DNA of 23,370 bases, taken from assembly GCA_000934665.2 (NCBI GenBank), contig JYFJ02001276.1, positions 62,001 through 85,370 of the forward strand. The letters are read 5' to 3'. A program made the translations under genes and the position numbers. The notes below the pieces were generated by a model that saw only the letters and a list, made by a program, of their open reading frames with translations, did no database searches and was not told the origin of the DNA. The stretch's first letter is position 1. The number at the start of each line of letters is the position of its first letter. Shown in pieces: positions 3,001-22,845 of the stretch. The DNA is from Catajapyx aquilonaris (taxonomy: Eukaryota).

Positions 3001-6000
3001 CTCATTGAGTTTATTTGCTGTGTCTTCACATTCCTTGGCTTGTTTCCATAAGCGACGAACCTCCTGAGCTGTTTCCTGTGCACGTCCAATGTCTGTGTAT
3101 GCTCCAAGAGCTGCAGTGGCCATCCCCAAAGAGTCAATTCGATCATTGAGGGCAGCCCAGTCAGCCTGCTGTAGTTTCAACATCTTAGTAGTTTCTTCAT
3201 CTAGGCTGGAAGTGACTTCCACCAGAGCCTGGGCCAATTGCCGAGGCCAACCAACCATTTGCCACCTCCTGCTTGCTTCCTCATTGCTTAACTGCACCCA
3301 CATACGTTCAAGCAAATCATAGTCTGCCATGGCTGCTTTAGAAACATCTTCTAGAACCTTGGACAGAGCTGGAACCCCTTCCATCCATTGACGGAGATCT
3401 GCCACATCCTTGATATCTGCTGGCTTGCTCTGCAGCTTACGCATCATTCCAATATACTCCGAGCATACACTACCAGTGCGATCAAACACCTTGCGGCAGA
3501 AGGCAGCCAACAACTCTGCATACATGGCCCGGCGTCGTTGGATTAATTGGGACCTCACAGCATCCATGCTCACATAAAAGGGACCCACTGGCTGGTTTGA
3601 AGGAAGTTCTGCCTCTAAGGAAGCAAGGTGTACCTTCTGGCTCTCTAACTCATTGCCCACCTCGGCAGCACTGCGATCTGCCAGTTTAAAATCCTGCATG
3701 GTTAGATGAAAATAAATACATGCTCAAAGCTCAACTGAAGAACTCAATTCATCTTTGGTGTTGTTGATATCAGAAACGCCAGTCACATTTAAAAATCTGA
3801 CATGCCTGGCTGGTATCACCAAACTAAATAACTGCTCATAAGAACTTCTAGTAGGCCTAGTAGGTATACAGAAGAATGGAGCACTGGTACATTCATATGA
3901 GAAGGAACTGCTCACTGAGCAAAGCCAGAAGAATTGGACATTTACCATTGTAACCGTCCATTGCCATTTACTTGACAGAATCTGGATCATTTACCTTTGC
4001 TTCCCATTCCTTCGCACATGTCTCCCATACTGATTCGTACTCCCTCCTTTCAGAACACCATAGTCGGAATGATTCACAATTTCAATCAATTTATAATATG
4101 CATGAGCAGTTGGAGACTCACATGGTACCCATATCAGTAAAATGTTCCAGAGGTTTATCAAATGCTGTAGAGTGAGTATGACAATCATCGTTTTAAAGAT
4201 AGGAGTGTTCCCTCTGACATGTGCCAACCCGAGCTCCATTCAGGGGCGAGTGTGTAATCAACTGTTGTTTAAGCTCTGCCTAAGAGCTGAGATCTGTCTT
4301 TGTTTGGACTATTCTCCAGACTTTTGAAAGTGAATAACCATGCACAAAATCTTGTACATGAGATTGGATATCCCTGAATCTCAGTTTTCACACTGAGTCA
4401 GGTGATTGGCAATTTGACTTTCATTGGTGGGCATGGCCCTTAGGACATTTTGCCCAGTCATTGGCATTTGGGCCACCTTAACTTTCATCATAACTAAATA
4501 TATAAACTAGTTTGACTACCAGTCAGCTGGTACAACATTCGAGTTGCAGATGGCATCAAAATAATATGTCTTCTTACCGCAATGTATGTGACAGGGTCCA
4601 GCTCAAACAACTTTTGGTATCTTTTCATTCTGACCAGTAGTGCCTCCAAAGGAACAACGCAAGATTTGAGGCAGGTCCTGACCCTTTCTCTTCTGTCCTC
4701 CATCAGTGTTTCTATCAGTCCAACAGACCCCAGGCACAGGTTCTCCTCAAAGCGCAGGTTTTGCATTAGCAACGGCTCAACATCTGGGATAGTGTGGCTG
4801 GCCCTTAGTGCAGTGTCCATGGCCAAAATCACTGCATCCTTTTCAAAAAAGACAAATAAAATTAAAACATCAAACACATTTGGCTTAAGTATGCGCAACA
4901 TCTATCCAATCTAAGTTTAATTGTCTCATCATATGACTAATATGCTATTAAACTCCTTTAGTATAAACAATTATCTTATCGCATATCTGCAGTGATCAAT
5001 AAAATTGTGTGGCATTTTCTTAGTGATAAAGGATTGAAAAGTCAAAATACTGTATCCTTCCAACTTATCATTTTTCAGCAACAGACAAAAACACATGACA
5101 TATGGCACAGTGCAGTGGGACCACAGATTTTTGAATCCACAGATTCAACCAACCGCACGGATCTAAAATACTAATATTCGGAAAAAGGAGCATGAATTTC
5201 CAAAGTGCAACAGTGATTTGTTGTGTGATGAGCACTTCAATGCAGTAGAGCAACTATTTACTTAGCATTATAAGTGATCTAGAGATGATTTAAAGTATAC
5301 AGGAGGATATGCACAGGTTTTGTGTATACTGTATGCAGTATACTACACCATACAATATATTGAGCATCTGCAGAAGGTCCAGAACCTTATAAAAAACCAA
5401 AGGATCTGAAAAATGTTCATGACAGATTATGTGTTAGATCATTAGACAAAATGCATAGAAGGACCAAAAAGGAACATACTGGAAATGGCAGAAAGATACA
5501 TAGTATTGTATTGTATTCTAGTGTAGTAGTGTATTATGTTATGTAATGAGGTTTCGGAAAAAAAATATTTTCGTAGAGGGTCGGCCAAGCGGCACGAGCC
5601 GCAGGTTGACCCTGGAATAAATAAATGCCTACAACAACAACAACAACATAGAAGGACCAAAAAGGAACATACTGGAAATGCCTCCGGTGGAGTCGAGTAT
5701 TGTGTAGAAGTTGCATCCACCTTGAGCTCAATAAAAAACAGAGGGTATCCTTTTGGCTTGAATGGAGTCTGATGGAGATCTTCACTCCATACCAGGTCTG
5801 ACGGGCAATCCCAAGTGCAGCGGGTGAGATCTTCAATCCCCTTTACTAGTTGGTATGTTGATAAGTAAACCAGTGATCTAAGTGTGTCCTGAGGGCAAGC
5901 AAGAATACAAGTTACATCTATTATTATTCATAAACCTTCCAATGAAACTATTACAAAATGCATTATCAAACTGCAGAGATATGCAAGGTGCTCAGAAAAT

Positions 6001-9000
6001 GTTGCACCTCCCTCCTCCAGCCTTTTATTCATCACGAAATATTTAAATAACTGCAGCCGATGCTGGCATGGAGCACGTCAATTTGAAGCTTCTATAATTA
6101 TGGACCTTTAATTTAGTCCCAGTATGATTTCACATAGTTTCCAATCATCCCTCCACTTCCTGATCAAAGTTTTCAGCAAAATATGTCAGTATGCATTCTT
6201 GATTCACATACCTCTACTATTTAAGGCCTCGAGTGGCATGAAATTGATGATCAATTGCAATGTCATTACCCTTGAACTATTCTTACATCATGCTGAAGCA
6301 CGAAATTATATTACCTGCAATAAAATATTATCAGCATGCTCAGAAATAAGCAGAGAATAGGAGTGTGATCTGAGTTTCAGATCTTCCCTCAGTTTTCACT
6401 AAAATTGTCAAAAGATAATAATGAGTAATCCTGGATCAGATTCAAATTGGTGGACTTCAAGTAATTACTCAAGTCATCTAGTAACATCATGTTGTTAGCA
6501 CATGCTTTGAAGTATTAATAACTTATTCATACCTCCTGACACAGTTCTCTTTGGGAATGATTCTCAAAATCAGAGGCAGCACATTCTGTGCCACAAAAAA
6601 TGAATGGAACATGTACTACATCAGACAAACTTCTTTTTTTTTTTTTGCTATATGTAGATATTTTACATGGTGAATCATCACTGCCTGGCAGACCTCTGAT
6701 ATCATCAACAGGTAACATTGTGTCACTTCACAAGAAGAGCAAATGCATTTCCAAGCCCTTTCTCAAAGAGTGTCGAAATGTCCTACTACTTATAACCATA
6801 CATCAAATCTTAAAATAGTGGATAGATTTGGCTCATGCCTTCATGGTAAAGTTGATTCTTGTCATGAGCTTGGAGAGCTTAGCAAGTAAGTAGATCTCCC
6901 ATCTGTGCTCATGTATGTTGTACCACCCTTCAAGTATAGGTCCTAGCTTTTCCTTGAGCATGTTGACCACATTGGGCACCCACATCTCCTGCAGGTAGTT
7001 CAAGGTCTGCTGAAGCTGAGTCTGCTGCAAGGAGATGTATTCCTCCAGACGTGATGGACGTGCAGCTCCCAAAGTGAACAATGGGACTCGCGTAGTTTTC
7101 TCACACATAGTCATCAGTTCAACCAGGGCAGCCAGTACTTCTGGTTGTGTCAAGAGACTCATAAAACGCATCTTGCGCTTTCTCTCTGCAAAGTTGTACT
7201 CAGGTACCTGAGAGGAATGCATTTGCATGTTAATCAGGTACTGCACATACACTCCTAGTCAACATCCCAGTAAGTACAGTACAACATAATGCAGTGATTC
7301 TGTGGGTATAAAATGGATGAGGTCTAAGGCACTGACATAACAAATCCTCTGTCTACAAACAGTTACCAATCATGATTTATCAATTGATTATAATAAATGA
7401 GTGCACCCCTTTAAAGTCATGTGCCATTCCTTTCCTCACCAAAATATTTATTGCACAGTGCCATGCAATGAGCATATCTTATATTCTTTTCGCAATACTG
7501 TTAGAGGTTAGACCCACCTTCACTTTCCCATTAGCAGGGACCTCAACATGTTCCTCTGGAAGTAGGAACAGGAAAGGTACCCACTCTGCATGTTCATTGG
7601 CCACTCGCTTGAAGAAGGCAATAGCATTGGCAGAAGCATAAAATCGCTGCACCTCTGCCTGGGTCCTGGGAAGAGCATCTGGGGGGAGGGTGGATGCCTT
7701 CCAGCCACCAAATGCAATCTTAGTAATCCTCCATAGAACTTGTGGGGTAAGTTCTATTCCTGCAGATTGGCTAGGCAAACAGTCCAGTGCCAACCGAAAC
7801 CTGATCAGGGCTTCTGTGGCAGCCCGGCGATCAGCTGCATCCACTAGGCGAGCAACATGCAGGCGAGGGTCCTCAGCATCAAATATCAGGTAGGGTCGAG
7901 CAACCCACTCTTCTCTAAAGGGCCAATTATCCAGACAGTCAACCAGCCACAAATCCCTGTGGGGATTAACTCACAATAATATCACATTGCATTCAGTTCT
8001 TTAGACCACAACACTCCTTTCTCATGCAGTCATGCTCAGCCAGATAACCCACCTAAGAGTGCAACAAGCTGCTTAAAACTTCCTCTACCTACATTTGTTT
8101 TTCCTCAAGTCAAGAAACCCTTACAAATTCATCACTGAATATTGCAGAAGTATTGTTTCACAGTAACCTTTAAGCATGGCATGATTGATGGTAATAAACC
8201 GAACACTGTTACACCCCACCTCATGGTCTGTCATGGTGTAGTCAACATCTCTTCCTACCTCAAACCAGCATGACATAGAAATGCAATTTTTCAGTTACAC
8301 AGAATTAACACTTAACATACAGCAGCTGATATTGTCCTCCATTCAAAAGGAAACTGCATAACATAAAATCAATGCTCCGATTGGCATCTTTTGTGTGGAA
8401 ACTAACAAGCTTGCACAAACACAGGCACTTACGTTTGTGGGTCATAATCCTTGACAGCCACATTAGCCCAGGAGTGCAGGCTGAACGGCTGGTGCAGCTT
8501 CCCGAAATCATCTGAACTCAAAGATTTTCTGCTGCTCTCTGGCAGCCTCTTTCTAACTACTTTCTCCATTTGGGGTGGACAGGCAGGCTCTATAGTTGCA
8601 TTAGAAAGGTGCTCCTTTTTCTCATAAAGGCCCAGGGTACTTTGGACGAGGTACCCCACACGTACTTCCCCTTTCGTGGTGTGGGACTTGACTCCCAAGA
8701 CAGGCAAATAATGCTGGTAGATGTCTGGATTGGTTGACATACCATAAAACAGCTTTCGAGGTGCTGGTCCTTCCTGGGAAGTTTTTGATGACAATGACAT
8801 CTTTGAGGTCATCTGCACAGATGTATCAGATAGGCCAGCGGATTGCAGAGTTGATGAGCTGCTGCTAATTGATTCTCTCCTGTTATAAAAAGAGCATAAT
8901 GTGCCTATATTAAGAACATGCACATACAGGGTGGGGCAAAAGCGGATTAAAACGACAAGAGCATGACGTAAGTAACGAACAGTTATATTTTTTAAAAATT

Positions 9001-12000
9001 ACACTACACAGAGAACGATATGACATTTATGGATCGAGGTCCAAAAAAGTCACTTCTTGAAAACAACACCAGAGAGATGTCCACCTTTGCTGGCAACACA
9101 TTATTCCTCCAAACGCCGGACGATACCCTTCATAACGCGCTCCAGCATGTCCAGGGGAATGTTTCTTCAGCATGTCTTATCTGCGATCCTTAAGATCAGC
9201 CAATGACTGAGGTGGTGTGGCGAACACCAAACAAATTAAAAGTCAAATGTTTCCTGGGCGGGTCATTTTGAGATTTGGGGACATTCCATGGCCACCGCGG
9301 TCGCCGGATGTGACCACCCCCGACTTCTTCTTGTGGGGGTACCTGAAGAGTTTGGTGTTCGCCACACGTCCTCAGTCATTGGCTGATCTTAAGGATCAGG
9401 TAAGACACGCCGTGAGAAACATTTCCCTGGACATGCTGGAGCGCTTTATGAAGGGTTTCATCCAGCGCTTGGAGGAATGTGTTGCCCGCAAAGGTGGACA
9501 TCTATCCGGTGTTGGTTTCAAGAAGTGACTTTTTTGGACCTTGATCCATAAATGGCATATCTTTCTCTGTGTAGTGTAATTAAAAATATATATAATTGTT
9601 CGTTACATGTGCCCATGACTTTTGCCCCACCCTGTATAAGTCACACCTGCACACAGATCTAATTTCCTTTTGTTATTTCAGTGAATATTCCTATATTTAT
9701 TAATTTGCAACCTACATCCAGATCAATTCCTTAGCATATGATCATATCTTGTGACCTAAATGCAGCTCATCTTAGCAGCCATTCAATGTAAGACAATTTT
9801 TTTCAAAAAGGCTGTGAGCTTTTAAACTCTAAAAGGTGCAAGGAGAAAGATTCTGGAAGGCACTTTCAGACAGCAGTGTCTGTGAAATCATAATTCATTA
9901 CAAAGAAACCATTTTACAGAACAAGTTTCTGCTGCATGCAACAGAAAAATAACAAAAATCCTGCAAAGGGACCAAAGAAAAATTCAGCAATGGGGAAGTT
10001 CCCACTGAATCGAGGGTCCATAATGTAGGATACTATAAAGATGTTAATTACTGTGTCGCATGCTTATGGCTCTTTTGCTTCCTCATTATCAAAGAACGGA
10101 TATCTAGGTTTTTACAGACTACTTTTTCTTTTGTAGGAAGAGCACCGGGATCAAAATATCTATCCATTTCATAACACTAGGACCTTAAAAATCGTAGTGT
10201 TATAAAACCTAAAATTGCCTATTTTGGAAGTTAGGACCTATATGGCCTATTAGCATCTATTTTCACCGATTTAAGCCTTTTTGATGCATTTGCGTAATAT
10301 TTTCGACAGTTTTCCAGTGTTTTCCGTTCAAGTCATCCCTCCCCTCTTCAACCTGTGAATAGCGAAGCCTATAGACATGTCGGATGAACTGGCTGTACGA
10401 GGCATTTAACTTTTCAAGAATGACCCAGTTGCTTTGTGTGACATAGAAAAATTATTGTCAGCATAATTATGAAGCTGTACTGTCATACAGGTATTGCTGA
10501 CAAATAATATTTAAAAAAAATTAAAATATGGAACAACTGAAGACACAGGGGAAAAACGGGGAATGTCACATTCCGTTGGGGGTTCCTGCCAAGTGCACAG
10601 TACAATAGTAGCATAGGTGACACTTATACCTGGAGGCTTTCCATGGGTACAAGGGTGACAGTTGCATATAATGACGTGAAGATATCCCTATTATTCTTTA
10701 GACACGTGAAGAAATAAAGCTATTTCTTCGATTTTTCATGGAGATTTTTTCTGTGACATTCCCCGTTTTTCCCCTGTGCTCTTCAACTGCTAATATGTTC
10801 CTGTGTTTCAAAATTACATGGCCAAGAGTAGGCTGTAATGTTGCATGGGACTGAAAATAAATTAGGACCTGCTTGATTTTTAGTGCATATTTAAGAGCCT
10901 ATTTTAACTGTTTTCAGGACCTAAATATTCCTACCTATTTGAGAGTTTTTTAGAACATAGAAATCCGTTCTCTGCTCATTATTATCATTACTGAAAATCA
11001 GCATAATATAGTTAACTGATAAGATGGCTGAAAGAGAGGGAGAAAGAAATCCTGAATGTTTCTTCCTTTCCTGTGCAATCACAGCTCATATTTATTTTTT
11101 AAATAGTTCACATATCTCCCGTATGGTGTCTCCCATCAACATGTAGAATGCCATAACTTGCAGCATTGCAATCACAATCATAATGAACATTGTGACAGTC
11201 TTTAACAGATCTAACAGGGAACAGCAAGGTTCCGTGGGCTCTCTATAAATGATTTCGCAAATCTATTTTCAGTATAATGGCTGATTTATTTGTCATGAAA
11301 AATCCAGAGCACAATGATTCACTGTTATGGGTTTAATATTCAAAATAGGATTTTCATGCATGCATGTTGTCAAAGTTATGTAAAAAAAAGTTCTGGGACA
11401 ACAAAAAGGTTGAGTGTAAACTACAATAAAATGAAGAGTTACCCTTACTTTTCAACCAACTGCTCTGAAGGCTGTGAGGAATCAGGAAGCACATCATCGT
11501 CTTTGGCAGACAAAAAAGCTCTGGCTGGAATGGGATTACGCTGATATTCTCCTTCTATCTTCCCCAGCAGAAGCCACTCTTCAGGGGTCCTCGAATCAAA
11601 ATCCTTGTCATCAAACATCTCCAATGGAAGGTGCGGGACACCACGATCTGAAGCCAATTCTGGATCTGGAGGTGGTACTAGCAAAGCATCCACCAACCCT
11701 GCATCCAGCAGCATCTCTTCCAAATCCAGAGAAGCATAGAAACGCCTCCGACGTTCAACCACAACTTCATGAGGGCATGCCCCAGGAGGTGCAGCCCATG
11801 CCACTTGGACTTTGGGTTTCACAGTTTCATGTTGAAATACCTGAAGGAAGAATATGCAATAAATCTTTTTCAAGTTTTCAGGCAGGCGGCCTCTCTCCTA
11901 TCCTTCTTCCCTCATTTCAGCTAAGCACATAATAGCAGAAAAAACTAGGGAAAGAATTCATCAAATCATTCCACATCACCACATGCCAACAAATAAGAAA

Positions 12001-12698
12001 TTAATGTATTCCTCTTGCCAGGTATTAGACTTCTATTTCATATTGCTGTATAAGAGCAGTTATAAGGATTTGTTTATATTAAATATCTTCTGCAATGTAA
12101 AACCCAATAAGTGGCATTATCGCCATTTTATGCACACAAAAAAATCACTTCAAACTCCAGTGCAGTCACCTAATCCTATATTAGACAAGTTACATTCATT
12201 AAGCTTCCTGCTGTACATTTCATACATCACCCGTCCATCCATTACTGCACATCCCAAACTCAATCCCAAACCTAAAATTGTAATAAGAAGCCCAGGTATA
12301 CTTACAACTCCTCCTTTTTCCAAAAACCCACCAAGGTGATCAGCAGATGAAAATGGTGGGTAATCTAGGAAGAGCTTCTCCTTGACTGTTTGAGAATCTG
12401 TCTCTACATCTTCATCAATTGATATCAAATCACCCGAAACACCAAGTAAAGCAATATCAACAAGCCTTTGGGTTGTCACAAGACACCTTTTAGTCTGGCA
12501 CCTCTTGGCATAACGGGTATCTTCAGTGCCTTCTTCAGTATCATGACCAGTGTCTTCGGCTTTGGCTGTGGGACATATAGATCCAGTGATGCCCTCAGAG
12601 AAGTAGGACCTCAGGTGATCCCTTCCAAGAGGGATGTCCATATGCCCTTTGTCAGTCTTCAATTTGGCAGGGGTGTAATCCTTAACCCCGTGTGGCAT
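1..12698 (-). CDS. DNAH1: Axonemal dynein heavy chain 1-like (inner-arm), 5' portion; spliced CDS join(12698..12306,11840..11449,8879..8433,7956..7518,7207..6839,5888..5673,4838..4578,3693..2924,1161..345,56..1), continues off the left edge
   Basis: Exons join in consistent phase at GT(GC)/AG sites. Peptides resemble the DNAH1 tail and DHC_N2 region as recalled: LPLEMFDDKDFDSRTPEEW, DAEDPRLHVARL, DTLRSLV...YSTPPEAF, LRNPGMRQRHW, WLYLEAIFSSPDIAQQLP, CNQLLVQVEKGL. Confidence 0.88.
345..1161 (-). CDS. DNAH1: Dynein heavy chain exon, DHC_N2 (linker) region
   Basis: gacag acceptor and GTATTG donor. Contains LRNPGMRQRHW, AGKEYAIEQTLDKM and QRSWLYLEAIFSS. Confidence 0.93.
1348..2331. mobile_element. 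TA-flanked non-autonomous DNA transposon (ITm/pogo-like MITE)
   Basis: Ends TAGGGTAAATCGGGCAAGTGC and GCACTTGCCCTGCTTTACCCTA form an imperfect inverted repeat. The motif (G)CACTTGCCC(C) recurs at 1552, 1940, 2293 and 2310, and inverted at 1569 and 1967. Confidence 0.7.
2924..3693 (-). CDS. DNAH1: Dynein heavy chain exon (DFKLAD...MEPYR)
   Basis: tgcag acceptor and GTTAGC donor. Contains GPFYVS, WQMVGWP and LNERQLLFGLP. Confidence 0.9.
3724..3990 (-). pseudogene. Possible decayed hAT transposase C-terminal (dimerization) fragment in a dynein intron
   Basis: The ORF contains FFW...APFFCIPTRPTRSSYEQLFS, resembling the hAT motif W...LAxKYLCIPATSxxSERLFS. Confidence 0.4.
4578..4838 (-). CDS. DNAH1: Dynein heavy chain exon (DAVILAMD...VTYIA)
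   Basis: aag acceptor after a T-tract, GTAAGA donor, 87 codons, IPDVEPLLMQNL. Confidence 0.85.
5113..5387 (+). mobile_element. Tigger/pogo-family (Tigger3/MER2-like) remnant
   Basis: Contains TCCACAGATTCAACCAACCGC, AACTATTTAC and TATAAGTGATCTAGAGATGATTTAAAGTATACAGGAGGATATGC, in the same order as the Tigger3/MER2-type consensus I recall. Termini are decayed. Confidence 0.65.
5488..5646 (+). mobile_element. 5'-truncated non-LTR retroelement or SINE 3' end with a 34-bp target-site duplication
   Basis: AATAAATAAA at 5616-5625 and a (CAA)5 tail at 5632-5646. Flanked by exact copies of CATAGAAGGACCAAAAAGGAACATACTGGAAATG at 5454-5487 and 5647-5680. Confidence 0.75.
5673..5888 (-). CDS. DNAH1: Dynein heavy chain exon (DTLRSLV...YSTPPEAFP)
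   Basis: Manual translation gives DTLRSLVYLSTYQLVKGIEDLTRCTWDCPSDLVWSEDLHQTPFKPKGYPLFFIELKVDATSTQYSTPPEAFP. ccctcag acceptor, GTATGT donor. Confidence 0.88.
6839..7207 (-). CDS. DNAH1: Dynein heavy chain exon (VPEYNF...INFTMK), GC donor
   Basis: tctcag acceptor, 123 codons, SLLTQPEV and GWYNIHE motifs. Ends AAG|GCATGA. Confidence 0.87.
7518..7956 (-). CDS. DNAH1: Dynein heavy chain exon (DLWLVD...GKVK)
   Basis: ccccacag acceptor and GTGGGT donor. Contains WVARPYLIFDAEDPRLHVARL. Confidence 0.88.
8433..8879 (-). CDS. DNAH1: Dynein heavy chain exon (Ser-rich insert ending HSWANVAVKDYDPQT)
   Basis: Open frame, taacag acceptor, GTAAGT donor, phase 2/2 matching both neighbours. The 3' end W-x-x-V-x-V-x-DYD is DNAH1-like. 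Confidence 0.72.
8927..9634. mobile_element. Non-autonomous Tc1/mariner element (rosa/DD41D-like) with long inverted arms and a transposase C-terminal fragment
   Basis: TA on both flanks and a perfect 16-bp terminal repeat CAGGGTGGGGCAAAAG. ORF 9217-9528 has WPPRSPDVTTPDFFLWGYLKS...GGH. 8927-9232 is an inverted copy of 9350-9634. Confidence 0.9.
10090..10974. mobile_element. hAT-type non-autonomous element
   Basis: Imperfect TIRs (CAAAGAACGGATATCTAG versus the reverse complement of the right end, CAGAGAACGGATTTCTAT). Exact 8-bp TSD CTCATTAT at 10082-10089 and 10975-10982. Subterminal GGACCT/GCCTA repeats. Confidence 0.82.
10540..10783. mobile_element. MITE nested in the hAT element
   Basis: Perfect 27-bp inverted repeat CACAGGGGAAAAACGGGGAATGTCACA at 10544-10570 and 10752-10778. 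Flanked by the direct repeat CAACTG at 10534-10539 and 10784-10789. Confidence 0.82.
11449..11840 (-). CDS. DNAH1: Dynein heavy chain exon (VFQHETVKPKVQ...EQLVEK)
   Basis: cttcag acceptor and GTAAGG donor. PKVQ...ERRRRFYASLDLEEML...LPLEMFDD matches the DNAH1 N-terminus. Confidence 0.88.
12306..12698 (-). CDS. DNAH1: Dynein heavy chain coding exon 1 (MPHGVKD...EKGGV)
   Basis: ATG at 12698 has an in-frame TAA upstream. Acceptor cccacag at 12747-12746 and donor GTAAGT at 12305. Phase 0 join to the next exon. The N-terminus is divergent, so the start is less certain. Confidence 0.6.
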
Positions 12699-12905
12699 CT
12701 TTCAACTGTTGCACACCTGGTGACTTTTTGGTAATTAACTTGAGTCTGTGGGAATCAGAATGAAAAGTGAGCCCATTTCATTTAAAAACGTTCCCAGCCT
12801 CCAAGCAACAACTATCAACATCAATTTATTAAACAACAATACTATTGTTTTATATATTGTCATTCAGTGACAAAATTGACAAATACGTGCGCATACAGAG
12901 GCAGT

Positions 12906-13000
12906 AGGTTTTTTCGTCCCACTGCCAGCTACTGCTAAGTTAGCAGTACCAGTGTTGGCAAAGTAAGCAGTAACTAGCAGTTGGGACGAAAATTCCACCC
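12906..13000. mobile_element. Small MITE, copy 1
   Basis: Inverted arms TTTTCGTCCCACTGC and GCAGTTGGGACGAAAATTCCACCC. Homologous to 14497-14604. Confidence 0.68.
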
Positions 13001-13079
13001 AAATTGGTCTATACGTGCTGTAGGCTACTGTTACAGGTGTCACATACATCATCCGGTTGGTATTCACAAAAATCTGAAA

Positions 13080-13620
13080 TCACTCACAAGCAGGACTAGT
13101 CCCAGAGCCTCCCCCAAGCTCACTGGAACTTGGCGAAAACCTTGTCGAACTGCTATAAAAGCAAAATCTGCGAGAACATGCAGAAATTCGCACGAGTCGA
13201 AGCGCCGCCGTTCGAACCCGCGAAACGACACTATCGACTAAACTAAAAAGATCAACTGGTATCGTCAAAAAACATTATCCCTAGCTACGCCAATCAGTGA
13301 CCAGGATCTACCATTCGTGACCAATCACCGCGCAGGACCAGTATCCAGCGAGTTGCACGTGTAAACTCTGTGTGAAATATTGTCGGACACAAAATGGCGT
13401 CGTTTTTTTTTATTATAATATTTCGGTCGTGGTTCGTGACTGGATCTTGATGAAAATGGCTGCAATCGTGTGAGGGGAAAATTCCGGAGTTAACTGGCCG
13501 ATGGAAAAGTGGCGTAGGTAGTCGAACAGCGGTGGAGCCTAGAGGGGGCGGAGGGGAAAGGAAATGACGCCCACACTTGGCTTATCTCACACGTAGTAGC
13601 AAGCAGCGGCAGAGAGGCTG
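13080..13620. promoter_or_regulatory. Putative bidirectional CpG-rich promoter and first non-coding exons
   Basis: Lies between the divergent genes and is locally CpG-rich. CCAAT at 13290 and 13321, CACGTG at 13356, YY1/Pho-like AAAATGGC at 13391 and 13453, GC box GGGGGCGGAG at 13544. A minus-strand donor GTGAGT at 13087 could end a dynein 5'UTR exon. Confidence 0.6.
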
Positions 13621-14496
13621 GGAGGATGTTTTGTATACAGTATATTATCTCTGAATAACCCTGTGATATTATAATCCTAGGATAATAAGCCTTTTAGAGG
13701 TATGCCGAAAAAAAGTAATAAATTGTAATCACACGCACTTGACGTCAACCGAGCTGTGTAATACATTGAATTAATGCGGCTCGCAACTGACTGAAGAGAG
13801 CACATCCTGCGTTTTGGGTAAGTTGTTCGTAGTCATTCTGTTGAAGCAAGGCTGGACCTAATGGGAGCTTATGTACGCAGGTTAGTTGCAGTGTGGGACA
13901 TTTGTTTGTCAGGTAATGCATAATAGCCACAGTTACTGGAGCTGATCGTGAATTACTTTACATCAGAGCAGCTAGTGAATTTTTAGGAATGTTTTAGCTC
14001 GTACTTACCATATTAATTTGCATAATCTGGTCCCTAACATTGTTGTCCAGGTTATTATTTTTCTGGCTGCAAGGACAGTAAAGAGGGTGTTTTTGCAGAA
14101 ATTATTAAAACAACCAAAGTATGCTCCATTTATTGTCCTGAGTTCACCCTTAAGACTCGTGTGAACCATTCATGTCAGTCTTTAGTGGAGTTCAATGCGC
14201 TTTCGTTCACCAATAATATCAATGGTCCATTGCCATTGTGATTGATTAATGGACAGTTTCAAACTGTGCACAAGGACAGATTAGGAACAACTGTGACATT
14301 GAAGGCGGATGCCCACCATCAATGTTATCTGAGGTGTGCAAGGAAATTATTTTTTAACGTCGCATATCCTTGTAGGCAAGATGATGAAATGATGCTGCAC
14401 AAAATGTTTCTGTGATTAAGTTTGCATACACAGTTAGCAAACTAAGTTGTAAACCAAGCCCAGGATACTTGGCAGTCTGCAGACATTTTAATAATT

Positions 14497-14604
14497 GGGT
14501 GGAATTTCCATCCCACTGCAAGTTTGCTAACTTGGCAGTACCTGTGTTGTAAATGGTACAGTTAAGGTAGCAGTAACTATTTCAGTGGGACGAAAATTCG
14601 ACCC
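14497..14604. mobile_element. Small MITE, copy 2 (GGG...CCC termini)
   Basis: Inverted ends GGGTGGAATTTCCATCCCACTG and CAGTGGGACGAAAATTCGACCC. Internal GCAGTACC and AGCAGTAACTA are shared with copy 1. Confidence 0.72.
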
Positions 14605-15315
14605 AGTGAATGTAAATTAATTAGATGTTCAGGTGCACCTGTAACCTCCTTGATGTCAGGTGATGTTTAATTACCATGTGCCCTTGTAATGAAGTGTCAC
14701 ACTTGCATGATTAAGTAAGTATGCCACCAACTGTGAATGCCATTCTTACCTACAGAAACGTAACGTTGCACTCTGCCAAAACATGTGTGCTACAGATACT
14801 GCTTTTAGCGAGGCTTTTAGCATACTCATTCATTCATGCACATTCAGCTCCATGGCAAGCAATACTATGGCAAGAAATTTTATTCCCCCTGGTATGAATA
14901 TGAGATTCACCTACTTTCACTTTCCCTAGTACGTTTTTAATGTGGGCAAAGGCGCTTTCGTATGGTTTGGTTTTATAAGGAGAGGGTTTCATTTCATCTC
15001 GGTGTACACCTGATCATATGGAATATGTATACCCACACTACATTACTTAACACTTCTAGTACGCCAAGTGACAACTGGCACAAAATGGAAGTGTTTGTTA
15101 CTAGATGGTTTAAAAAACAGTGGGTTTTACCACGTTCAACATGTCTACTTTCTTTTTTTTACATATTGTGTGGAATCTTCCAATTTGCATTAAAACAAAA
15201 TTACAAATAATAAATATTTTCCTTGATGTGCAGTGCACATTATTTTATTATGGTTTATGCGTTGGTTTTCTGCACTGCTCTATATACGAGGTGATTTATA
15301 TTTCAGGCATACAAA

Positions 15316-22845
<7,530 letters not shown>

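What the first reader, a model, noticed from the sequence alone, without database searches (positions are those of the whole stretch)
5113..5387. Mammalian-like Tigger3/MER2 sequence in an arthropod intron: horizontal transfer candidate
Seen: blocks such as TATAAGTGATCTAGAGATGATTTAAAGTATACAGGAGGATATGC and TCCACAGATTCAACCAACCGC. From memory these closely follow non-coding parts of eutherian Tigger3/MER2-type elements, and several differences look like CpG decay (CGG to CAG, CCG to CTG). Inference: non-coding nucleotide similarity across that distance would imply horizontal transposon transfer. The sequence sits inside an intact gene, which argues against contamination.
Basis: partly seen in the sequence, partly recalled or inferred. 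Interest (0 to 1): 0.7.

Follow-up and report, generated by a model that had tools for sequence, protein, structure and literature searches.

The report
Human-repeat-like transposon fossil, arthropod intron
A roughly 300-base dead "jumping gene" inside an intron of an arthropod dynein gene closely matches, block by block, a repeat found in human DNA, which points to an old transfer of this transposon family between distant animals, a kind of event already reported for the family.

Summary
Both quoted blocks are in the window (5269-5312 and 5136-5156). The host is an arthropod. Every named protein among the best 120 hits to a PI3K-C2 exon is arthropod, and insects score above spiders, ticks and Daphnia. 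The element (5108-5387, perhaps to 5425) lies in an intron of about 840 nt between two consecutive exons of a DNAH1-like dynein gene.

No Dfam, RepeatMasker or mammalian genome was available, so the names MER2 and Tigger3 rest on recall only. A full-text search with a 13-letter word from the element found one paper. That paper prints a human lncRNA probe holding a TA-flanked element of about 340 nt that runs colinear with the window element. My hand count is about 200 of 274 aligned columns, about 80% in the good blocks. Some differences are CpG decay on opposite strands, and the host DNA is CpG-poor (o/e 0.41).

The copy is a fossil. It has no inverted repeats above chance, no TA flanks, no ORF, and no second copy in the window. 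Horizontal transfer is the reasonable reading but was not tested formally. Tigger transfer between eutherians and arthropods is already published (PMC9219625). Verdict: a new member of a known kind, of moderate interest.

The parts
5108..5387 (-). Core of the decayed non-autonomous transposon. Its minus strand runs in the same direction as the human repeat copy, which is also the strand of the dynein gene.
   Evidence: Colinear blocks shared with the human sequence printed in PMC6578592. Hand alignment gives about 80% identity in the good blocks. No stop-free frame of 70 aa or more lies within the element: of the 77 frames listed, only 4962-5174 (+) touches it, overlapping its left end. CpG o/e is 0.30.
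5388..5425 (-). Possible decayed other terminus of the element. The minus strand starts CTGTCAT at 5425.
   Evidence: Weak by-eye likeness to the first 30 letters or so of the human copy. Not supported by an inverted-repeat test. The boundary is uncertain.
5121..5144 (+). Two copies of the 8-mer CCACAGAT (5121-5128 and 5137-5144), read as subterminal repeats and likely former transposase-binding sites.
   Evidence: One search finds 3 copies of the 8-mer in the whole window, 2 of them here. The inverted form of the degenerate motif occurs at 5366-5373 near the other end.
5366..5373 (+). Inverted copy of the degenerate subterminal motif (ATCYRYRG) near the right end.
4581..4835 (-). Downstream dynein (DNAH1-like) exon flanking the intron.
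   Evidence: tblastn of P0001 residues 630-714 and P0002 residues 673-754.
5676..5891 (-). Upstream dynein exon flanking the intron. Its splice donor GTATGT (minus strand) is at about 5667-5672.
   Evidence: tblastn of P0001 residues 556-627 and P0007 residues 476-549, plus the sequence itself.
4836..5675 (-). Intron that holds the element.
   Evidence: Gap between consecutive protein segments: residue 627 is followed by residue 630 in P0001.

Best explanation
[quoted passage not shown] It is a miniature derivative that kept only the ends of a transposase-bearing parent. While the family was alive, a Tigger-type transposase made elsewhere in the genome would have bound the repeated subterminal motifs, cut the element out and pasted it into this intron of a DNAH1-like axonemal dynein gene. 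Since then it has decayed by point changes, CpG loss and small indels, and today it does nothing. Its non-coding sequence still follows a human interspersed repeat block by block. From recall, that repeat is the MER2 / Tigger3 (Golem) family. Arthropods and mammals are far too distant for neutral DNA to stay alike by descent. The family, or its autonomous parent, must therefore have passed horizontally between an arthropod lineage and the mammalian lineage, directly or through third hosts.

Shown: the homology to a human sequence, the arthropod host, the intronic position and the CpG-poor background.
Inferred: the transposon class, the mechanism, the transfer, and its direction and date.
For: - Homology to a human sequence. 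The 13-mer word search found one paper. Its human probe sequence carries the 9-, 11- and 13-mers of the window element in the same order and at similar spacing. The hand alignment gives about 200 of 274 columns, including a run of 19 of 20.
- Transposon features of the human copy. It is about 340 nt long, starts CAGT and has TA on both sides, the mark of Tc1/mariner/pogo insertions.
- Independent decay. Right after the shared 13-mer, the window's minus strand reads TGTG where the human copy reads CACA. These are the two opposite-strand decay products of CGCG. Both copies therefore descend independently from a CpG-bearing ancestor, and the window copy is not a copy of that human locus.
- CpG-poor host DNA. 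CpG o/e is 0.41 for the window and 0.30 for the element, against GpC 1.08.
- Arthropod host. All named proteins among the best 120 PI3K-C2 hits are arthropod, at 71-81% identity. Over about 1200 aa the best identity is about 50%, to insects. The spider and three ticks rank 72-77 of 77 and Daphnia ranks 56. The dynein exon is at most 54% identical to anything found and 47-50% to the two fish DNAH1 models.
- Embedded in the gene. The flanking exons are consecutive in the dynein alignment.
- Subterminal 8-mer. It is repeated twice at one end, with an inverted form at the other.
- Precedent. Tigger is reported in 155 arthropod species, with eutherian-arthropod transfers inferred (PMC9219625).
Against: - No program-made alignment to any mammalian consensus exists here. 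Identity figures are hand counts, and the MER2/Tigger3 name is recall.
- The copy itself lacks the class marks. No terminal inverted repeat rises above shuffles (score 9 against a mean of 7.8, sd 1.3, max 14). The flanks are CA and AT rather than TA.
- Only one copy is in the window. Copy number in the host is unknown because no genome is held and no reads were laid.
- The middle 55 nt or so and the outer 20-27 nt at each end align poorly by eye.
- Motif scans found no relative. There were 0 loci in viral contigs, and 19 metagenome loci and 14 prokaryote-genome loci that all share only the motif. Nothing is known about where else the family occurs.
- The runs that hold the stretch come from one sample and one study, and may be the assembly's own data.
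Confidence: 0.6

Rival explanations
1. The element belongs to a Tigger lineage long resident in arthropods. Mammals acquired a related lineage from some other source. The likeness is then that of two branches of one widespread, repeatedly transferred family, kept up partly by constraint on transposase-binding ends. It would not be a specific arthropod-eutherian transfer of MER2/Tigger3 itself.
For: Tigger is reported in 155 arthropod species of 19 orders, with arthropod and mammal tips interleaved in the published tree (PMC9219625). An Anolis family also has ends like marsupial Tigger3 (PMC3014272). The best-matching window blocks include the subterminal motifs.
Against: The likeness is not confined to the ends. 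Internal blocks far from the termini match at 19 of 20 and 22 of 28 columns by hand. Even this reading needs horizontal transfer somewhere, so it differs from the best explanation only in partners and date.
Confidence: 0.22
2. Contamination or assembly chimera: a piece of mammalian DNA was joined into the arthropod contig.
For: The stretch resembles human DNA. The only runs that hold it come from one sample and one study, and may be the assembly's own source.
Against: It would take two false joins within one 840-nt intron, between exons that are consecutive in the protein. The human copy seen differs at roughly a quarter of aligned columns and carries opposite-strand CpG decay. Each of four runs holds 96-97% of the sampled words of 4400-7300. 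The element's CpG depletion matches the host background.
Confidence: 0.06
3. Chance or low-complexity resemblance, with no homology to the human repeat.
For: The region is AT-rich. Rfam gave only chance-level hits (GHRLOS, 13.9 bits, E 0.35-1.2). All 33 loci found by motif scans were chance matches.
Against: Exact words of 13, 11 and 9 letters plus a run of 19 of 20 occur in the same order and spacing over about 300 nt. The 13-mer occurs in 1 paper and the 11-mer in 13 papers, and only one paper holds both.
Confidence: 0.03
4. A conserved functional non-coding element, such as an intronic enhancer or an RNA, rather than a transposon fossil.
For: It lies in an intron of a conserved gene.
Against: No Rfam family reaches its threshold. 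The human counterpart sits in an unrelated lncRNA, flanked by TA, with a CAGT start like a mobile element. The window copy shows CpG decay and indels as expected for neutral DNA.
Confidence: 0.02

Closest known systems
Human MER2, a miniature element of the Tigger3 (Golem) group of the pogo/Tigger transposons. The name is recalled. Repbase lists MER2 and GOLEM (Tigger3) among human Mariner/Tc1 elements (PMC5753468; passages read).
   Same: About 300-340 nt, non-coding and colinear in sequence blocks over nearly the whole length with a human copy. CpG-rich repeated subterminal motifs, now decayed. CAGT at the left end.
   Different: The host is an arthropod, not a eutherian. The window copy has a deletion of about 16 nt between two subterminal repeats, a deletion of about 15 nt, an insertion of about 13 nt, no TA flanks and no detectable inverted repeats. 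Membership could not be tested against a consensus model.
Tigger elements of arthropods and their inferred transfers to and from eutherians (Diaby et al. 2022, PMC9219625)
   Same: Same superfamily by inference and the same pairing of host groups. That paper infers eutherian-arthropod transfers involving 31 arthropod species.
   Different: That work rests on transposase coding sequences of full elements. Here there is a single non-coding miniature copy and no autonomous partner is in the window. Neither 'Tigger3' nor (apart from one occurrence of 'MITE') miniature elements come up in its main text ('Tigger3' 0 occurrences, 'MITE' 1).
pogo-derived MITEs shared between distant insects (pogo_NA of Bombyx mori and Rhodnius prolixus, PMC3845634)
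   Same: Short non-autonomous pogo-type elements with TA target sites that spread between distant hosts (passages read).
   Different: The terminal sequences printed there differ from those of the window element. Those families are young and high in copy number, whereas this copy is old and decayed.
Mariner-1_Tbel transfers between mammals and insects (PMC3517439; search listing only)
   Same: A precedent for Tc1/mariner-type DNA transposons shared by mammals and insects.
   Different: A different superfamily branch (mariner rather than pogo/Tigger), and I did not read the paper.

Membership tests
pogo/Tigger-type non-autonomous DNA transposon (MITE) | Terminal inverted repeats | tested here: not met
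   The best local alignment of the left end against the reverse complement of the right end scores 9. Shuffles give mean 7.8, sd 1.3, max 14. The left end does start CAGTG. This is compatible with decay of an old copy.
pogo/Tigger-type non-autonomous DNA transposon (MITE) | TA target-site duplication | tested here: not met
   The flanks read CA before 5108 and AT after 5425. The boundaries are uncertain. The human counterpart does have TA on both sides.
pogo/Tigger-type non-autonomous DNA transposon (MITE) | Short, with no coding capacity | tested here: met
   280-318 nt. No stop-free frame of 70 aa or more lies within it: among the 77 listed, only 4962-5174 (+) overlaps its left end.
pogo/Tigger-type non-autonomous DNA transposon (MITE) | Many copies in the host genome | not testable with these tools
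   No genome is held and no reads were laid. There is one copy in the 23-kb window.
pogo/Tigger-type non-autonomous DNA transposon (MITE) | Ends shared with an autonomous element encoding a pogo-type transposase | not testable with these tools
   No autonomous copy is in the window. Motif scans of three collections found no relatives.
MER2 / Tigger3 (Golem) family of eutherians | Significant match to the family consensus or HMM (Dfam, Repbase) | not testable with these tools
   No such library is on hand. The name rests on recall.
MER2 / Tigger3 (Golem) family of eutherians | Colinear nucleotide similarity to a genomic copy from a eutherian | tested here: met
   The human FISH-probe sequence in PMC6578592 shares exact 13-, 11- and 9-mers in the same order. 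The hand alignment gives about 73% identity over about 274 columns. That this human copy is MER2 is recalled and is not stated in the paper.
Horizontal transposon transfer | TE divergence far below that of host genes (dS) | tested here: inconclusive
   Qualitative only. Non-coding DNA is about 73-80% alike with a human copy (hand count). Against that, the host dynein exon is only 47-50% identical at the protein level to the fish DNAH1 models. No dS was computed and no host consensus is available.
Horizontal transposon transfer | Patchy taxonomic distribution and tree conflict | not testable with these tools
   No eukaryote genome collection is searchable here.

The most novel reading that the evidence does not exclude
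This insect-like arthropod lineage carries the very family known in eutherians as MER2/Tigger3. It would be the same miniature element, not merely a cousin. One of the old, abundant DNA transposon families of placental mammals would then share a transfer event with an arthropod lineage on the order of 100 million years ago. That would name a candidate donor or reservoir clade for it. The window copy is as close to a human copy as old human copies are expected to be to each other, and that would also imply an unusually slow neutral rate in this arthropod.
Probability: 0.3. Interest if true: 0.6.

Novelty: new member of a known kind. Interest (0 to 1): 0.4.

Why it matters
Old DNA transposons make up a few percent of mammalian genomes, and their sources are mostly unknown. 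An arthropod copy that still aligns to a human repeat across non-coding sequence would add a concrete, datable link between arthropods and early placental mammals for one such family. It would fit the proposal that arthropods act as reservoirs or vectors. It is also a practical warning: human-like repeats inside genuine invertebrate genes can trip contamination screens. On present evidence it is one decayed copy, and the phenomenon is already described at the family level.

Tried and rejected
- Host genome search: none is held.
- Earlier findings of this scan: nothing for this sequence or genome. Eight of 11 'Tigger' notes were shown, all from other genomes (named ones: Ostreococcus, Naegleria), and none bears on this finding.
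- Reads: the look-up of sequencing runs listed four DNA holders from one sample and one study, and no RNA holder. Read laying laid nothing, so depth, copy number and host variants remain unknown.
- Motif scans with a 20-letter degenerate motif from 5135-5154. Viral contigs gave 0 loci. Metagenome contigs gave 19 loci and prokaryote genome contigs 14 loci. blastn and inspection show all 33 share only the motif (21-29 nt), about the number expected by chance from my own estimate.
- Rfam: only sub-threshold hits (GHRLOS 13.9 bits against a gathering score of 48, U8, HOTAIRM1_5). Rejected as chance.
- Host placement with the PI3K N-terminal exon: three weak dipteran hits only, too weak to use alone.
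- Old papers that might print the MER2 or Tigger consensus or ages (PMC330213, PMC39958, PMC1832089) are not held. The review PMC5857283 gave nothing on MER2's age.
- 'Tigger3' with 'insect': 3 papers, none about arthropod Tigger3. 'Tigger3', 'MER2' and 'horizontal transfer', at least 2 of 3 terms: 23 papers, 20 listed, none reporting MER2/Tigger3 outside vertebrates by title or abstract start.
The comparison is by eye.

Full report
**What is there**

The window is eukaryotic. A DNAH1-like axonemal dynein heavy chain gene runs on the minus strand. Its exon 336-1178 matches Pfam DHC_N2 at E 9.6e-82, and tblastn of five dynein hits maps seven exon blocks between 342 and 11837. A class II PI3-kinase gene runs on the plus strand from about 15316 to beyond 22845.

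The motif around the second block occurs once in the window, against 0.02 expected.

**Where it sits**

In P0001, dynein residues 556-627 map to 5891-5676 and residues 630-714 map to 4835-4581. P0002, P0007 and P0013 agree on these exons, although P0007 gave no hit to the 4581-4835 exon. The element therefore lies in an intron of about 840 nt (about 4836-5675) between two consecutive exons with open frames.

**Host**

- The dynein exon is at most 54% identical to anything among proteins of up to 2000 aa. It is 53-54% to an annelid and a snail, 53% to a priapulid, 50% to a coral, 47-50% to the two fish DNAH1 models and 45-48% to beetles. The host is not a vertebrate.
- For a PI3K-C2 kinase-domain exon, every named protein among the best 120 hits is arthropod. 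They include insects of many orders, spiders, ticks and Daphnia, at 71-81% identity.
- I summed tblastn hits over about 1200 aa for the 77 full-length proteins of that list. The best are insects at about 50% identity (a bee, a locust, a thrips, a stick insect). The spider ranks 72, three ticks rank 75-77 and Daphnia ranks 56 of 77.
- The host is therefore an arthropod nearer to insects than to chelicerates, with no close relative among these proteins. No whole genome is held, and I did not try to name the coded organism.

**Is it like a mammalian repeat?**

I looked for tool-based evidence in three ways.

- *Motif scans.* I scanned three collections with a 20-letter degenerate motif from 5135-5154. 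There were 0 loci in viral contigs, 19 in metagenome contigs and 14 in prokaryote genome contigs. None shares more than 21-29 nt around the motif with the element. All 33 are chance matches.
- *Rfam.* Only sub-threshold chance hits.
- *Full-text search.* The 13-mer that is the reverse complement of 5143-5155 occurs in 1 of about 8.4 million papers. That paper is PMC6578592, whose Table S2 prints a 1.2-kb FISH probe for the human lncRNA p4516.

In that human sequence the 13-mer lies in a stretch of about 340 nt that starts CAGT and has TA on both sides. That is the look of a Tc1/mariner/pogo insertion. Two more window-derived words occur once each in the same stretch and in the same order: an 11-mer (rc of 5338-5348) and a 9-mer (rc of 5360-5368). 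The distance from the 11-mer to the 13-mer is 185 nt in the window and 193 nt in the human copy, by hand count. As a control, the 11-mer alone occurs in 13 papers, mostly primers, and only this paper has both words.

I aligned the reverse complement of 5108-5425 with the human stretch by hand:

| Region | Match (by eye) |
|---|---|
| Whole element | about 200 of 274 aligned columns (about 73%) |
| Well-aligned blocks | about 151 of 188 columns (about 80%) |
| Best run | 19 of 20 |

- Window indels relative to the human copy: a deletion of about 16 nt between two subterminal repeats, a deletion of about 15 nt, and an insertion of about 13 nt.
- The central 55 nt or so and the outer 20-27 nt at each end align poorly.
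- These are by-eye counts, good to perhaps plus or minus 5 points.

**CpG decay**

Right after the shared 13-mer, the window's minus strand reads TGTG where the human copy reads CACA. These are the two opposite-strand decay products of CGCG. Both copies therefore come from a CpG-bearing ancestor and decayed independently, which also argues that the window copy was not lifted from that human locus.

The host DNA here is strongly CpG-poor:

| Region | CpG o/e |
|---|---|
| Whole window | 0.41 |
| Exons | 0.32 |
| Non-exon DNA | 0.45 |
| Element | 0.28-0.30 |

GpC o/e is 1.08 for the whole window.

**State of the copy**

It is a fossil.

- There is no inverted repeat between its ends above shuffled controls (score 9 against mean 7.8, sd 1.3, max 14).
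- The flanks read CA and AT, not TA.
- No stop-free frame of 70 aa or more lies within it.
- There is no second copy in the 23-kb window.
- The 8-mer CCACAGAT occurs twice near the left end (5121 and 5137; 3 copies in the whole window). The inverted degenerate form occurs at 5366 near the right end. This is what decayed subterminal transposase-binding repeats would look like.

**Mechanism**

This part is inferred and not shown. The element is a miniature, non-autonomous pogo/Tigger-type element that was once moved in trans by a Tigger-type transposase. It was pasted into the dynein intron and has been decaying neutrally since. I see no sign of a present function.

**Horizontal transfer**

Non-coding DNA that is about 73-80% alike between an arthropod and a human copy cannot be explained by descent from their common ancestor. 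At the protein level, even the conserved dynein exon is only 47-50% identical to the fish DNAH1 models. If the homology and the assembly are sound, horizontal transfer somewhere in the family's history follows. Its partners, direction and date remain open, and none of the formal tests could be run.

Contamination is unlikely for three reasons. It would need two false joins inside one short intron. The copy differs from the human copy seen at about a quarter of the aligned columns. Its CpG depletion matches the host background. However, the only runs that hold the stretch come from one sample and one study, so they give no independent support.

**Comparison with what is known**

- Repbase lists MER2 and GOLEM (Tigger3) among human Mariner/Tc1 elements (PMC5753468; passages).
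- An Anolis family has ends like marsupial Tigger3 (PMC3014272; passage).
- Diaby et al. 2022 (PMC9219625) report Tigger in 155 arthropod species of 19 orders. From transposase coding sequences they infer transfers between eutherians and 31 arthropod species. I read the abstract, passages of sections 3.1, 3.2 and the discussion, all of section 3.3, and a text rendering of supplementary figure S1.
- The kind of event is therefore in print. I found nothing in print on a MER2/Tigger3-type miniature element in an arthropod. Those searches cover only the held library, and I did not read that paper's species tables.

**Verdict**

This is a new member of a known kind and of moderate interest, pending a Dfam search and a host-genome census.

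Noticed in passing
window 5454-5487 and 5647-5680, insert 5488-5646: A perfect 34-nt direct repeat flanks a 159-nt insert that ends in AATAAATAAA followed by a (CAA)n run on the plus strand. This looks like a short retroposed or SINE-like insertion with an unusually long target duplication. The repeat contains the last 8 nt of the dynein exon plus its GTATGT splice donor (minus strand), so the intron now carries a second, identical donor site 193 nt downstream.
   Followed up: partly
window about 8925-9640: A foldback remnant of a Tc1/mariner-type transposon. It has inverted arms of 48, 64 and 136 nt at 89-96% complementarity. They surround a stop-free frame (9211-9528, plus strand) that looks from recall like the C-terminal end of a mariner/Tc1 transposase. 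That frame had no Pfam hit at E 0.01 and one weak PDB hit, Sleeping Beauty transposase, at E 0.0029.
   Followed up: partly
whole window: Strong CpG depletion in both exons (o/e 0.32) and non-exon DNA (0.45), with normal GpC (1.08) and an excess of TG/CA (1.32). This suggests heavy germline DNA methylation in this arthropod.
   Followed up: partly
window about 11837-15316: The dynein gene (minus strand) and the PI3K-C2 gene (plus strand) are arranged head to head. The outermost mapped exons are about 3.5 kb apart. A further minus-strand open frame at 12150-12701 may be the dynein's first exon, but this was not checked.
   Followed up: no
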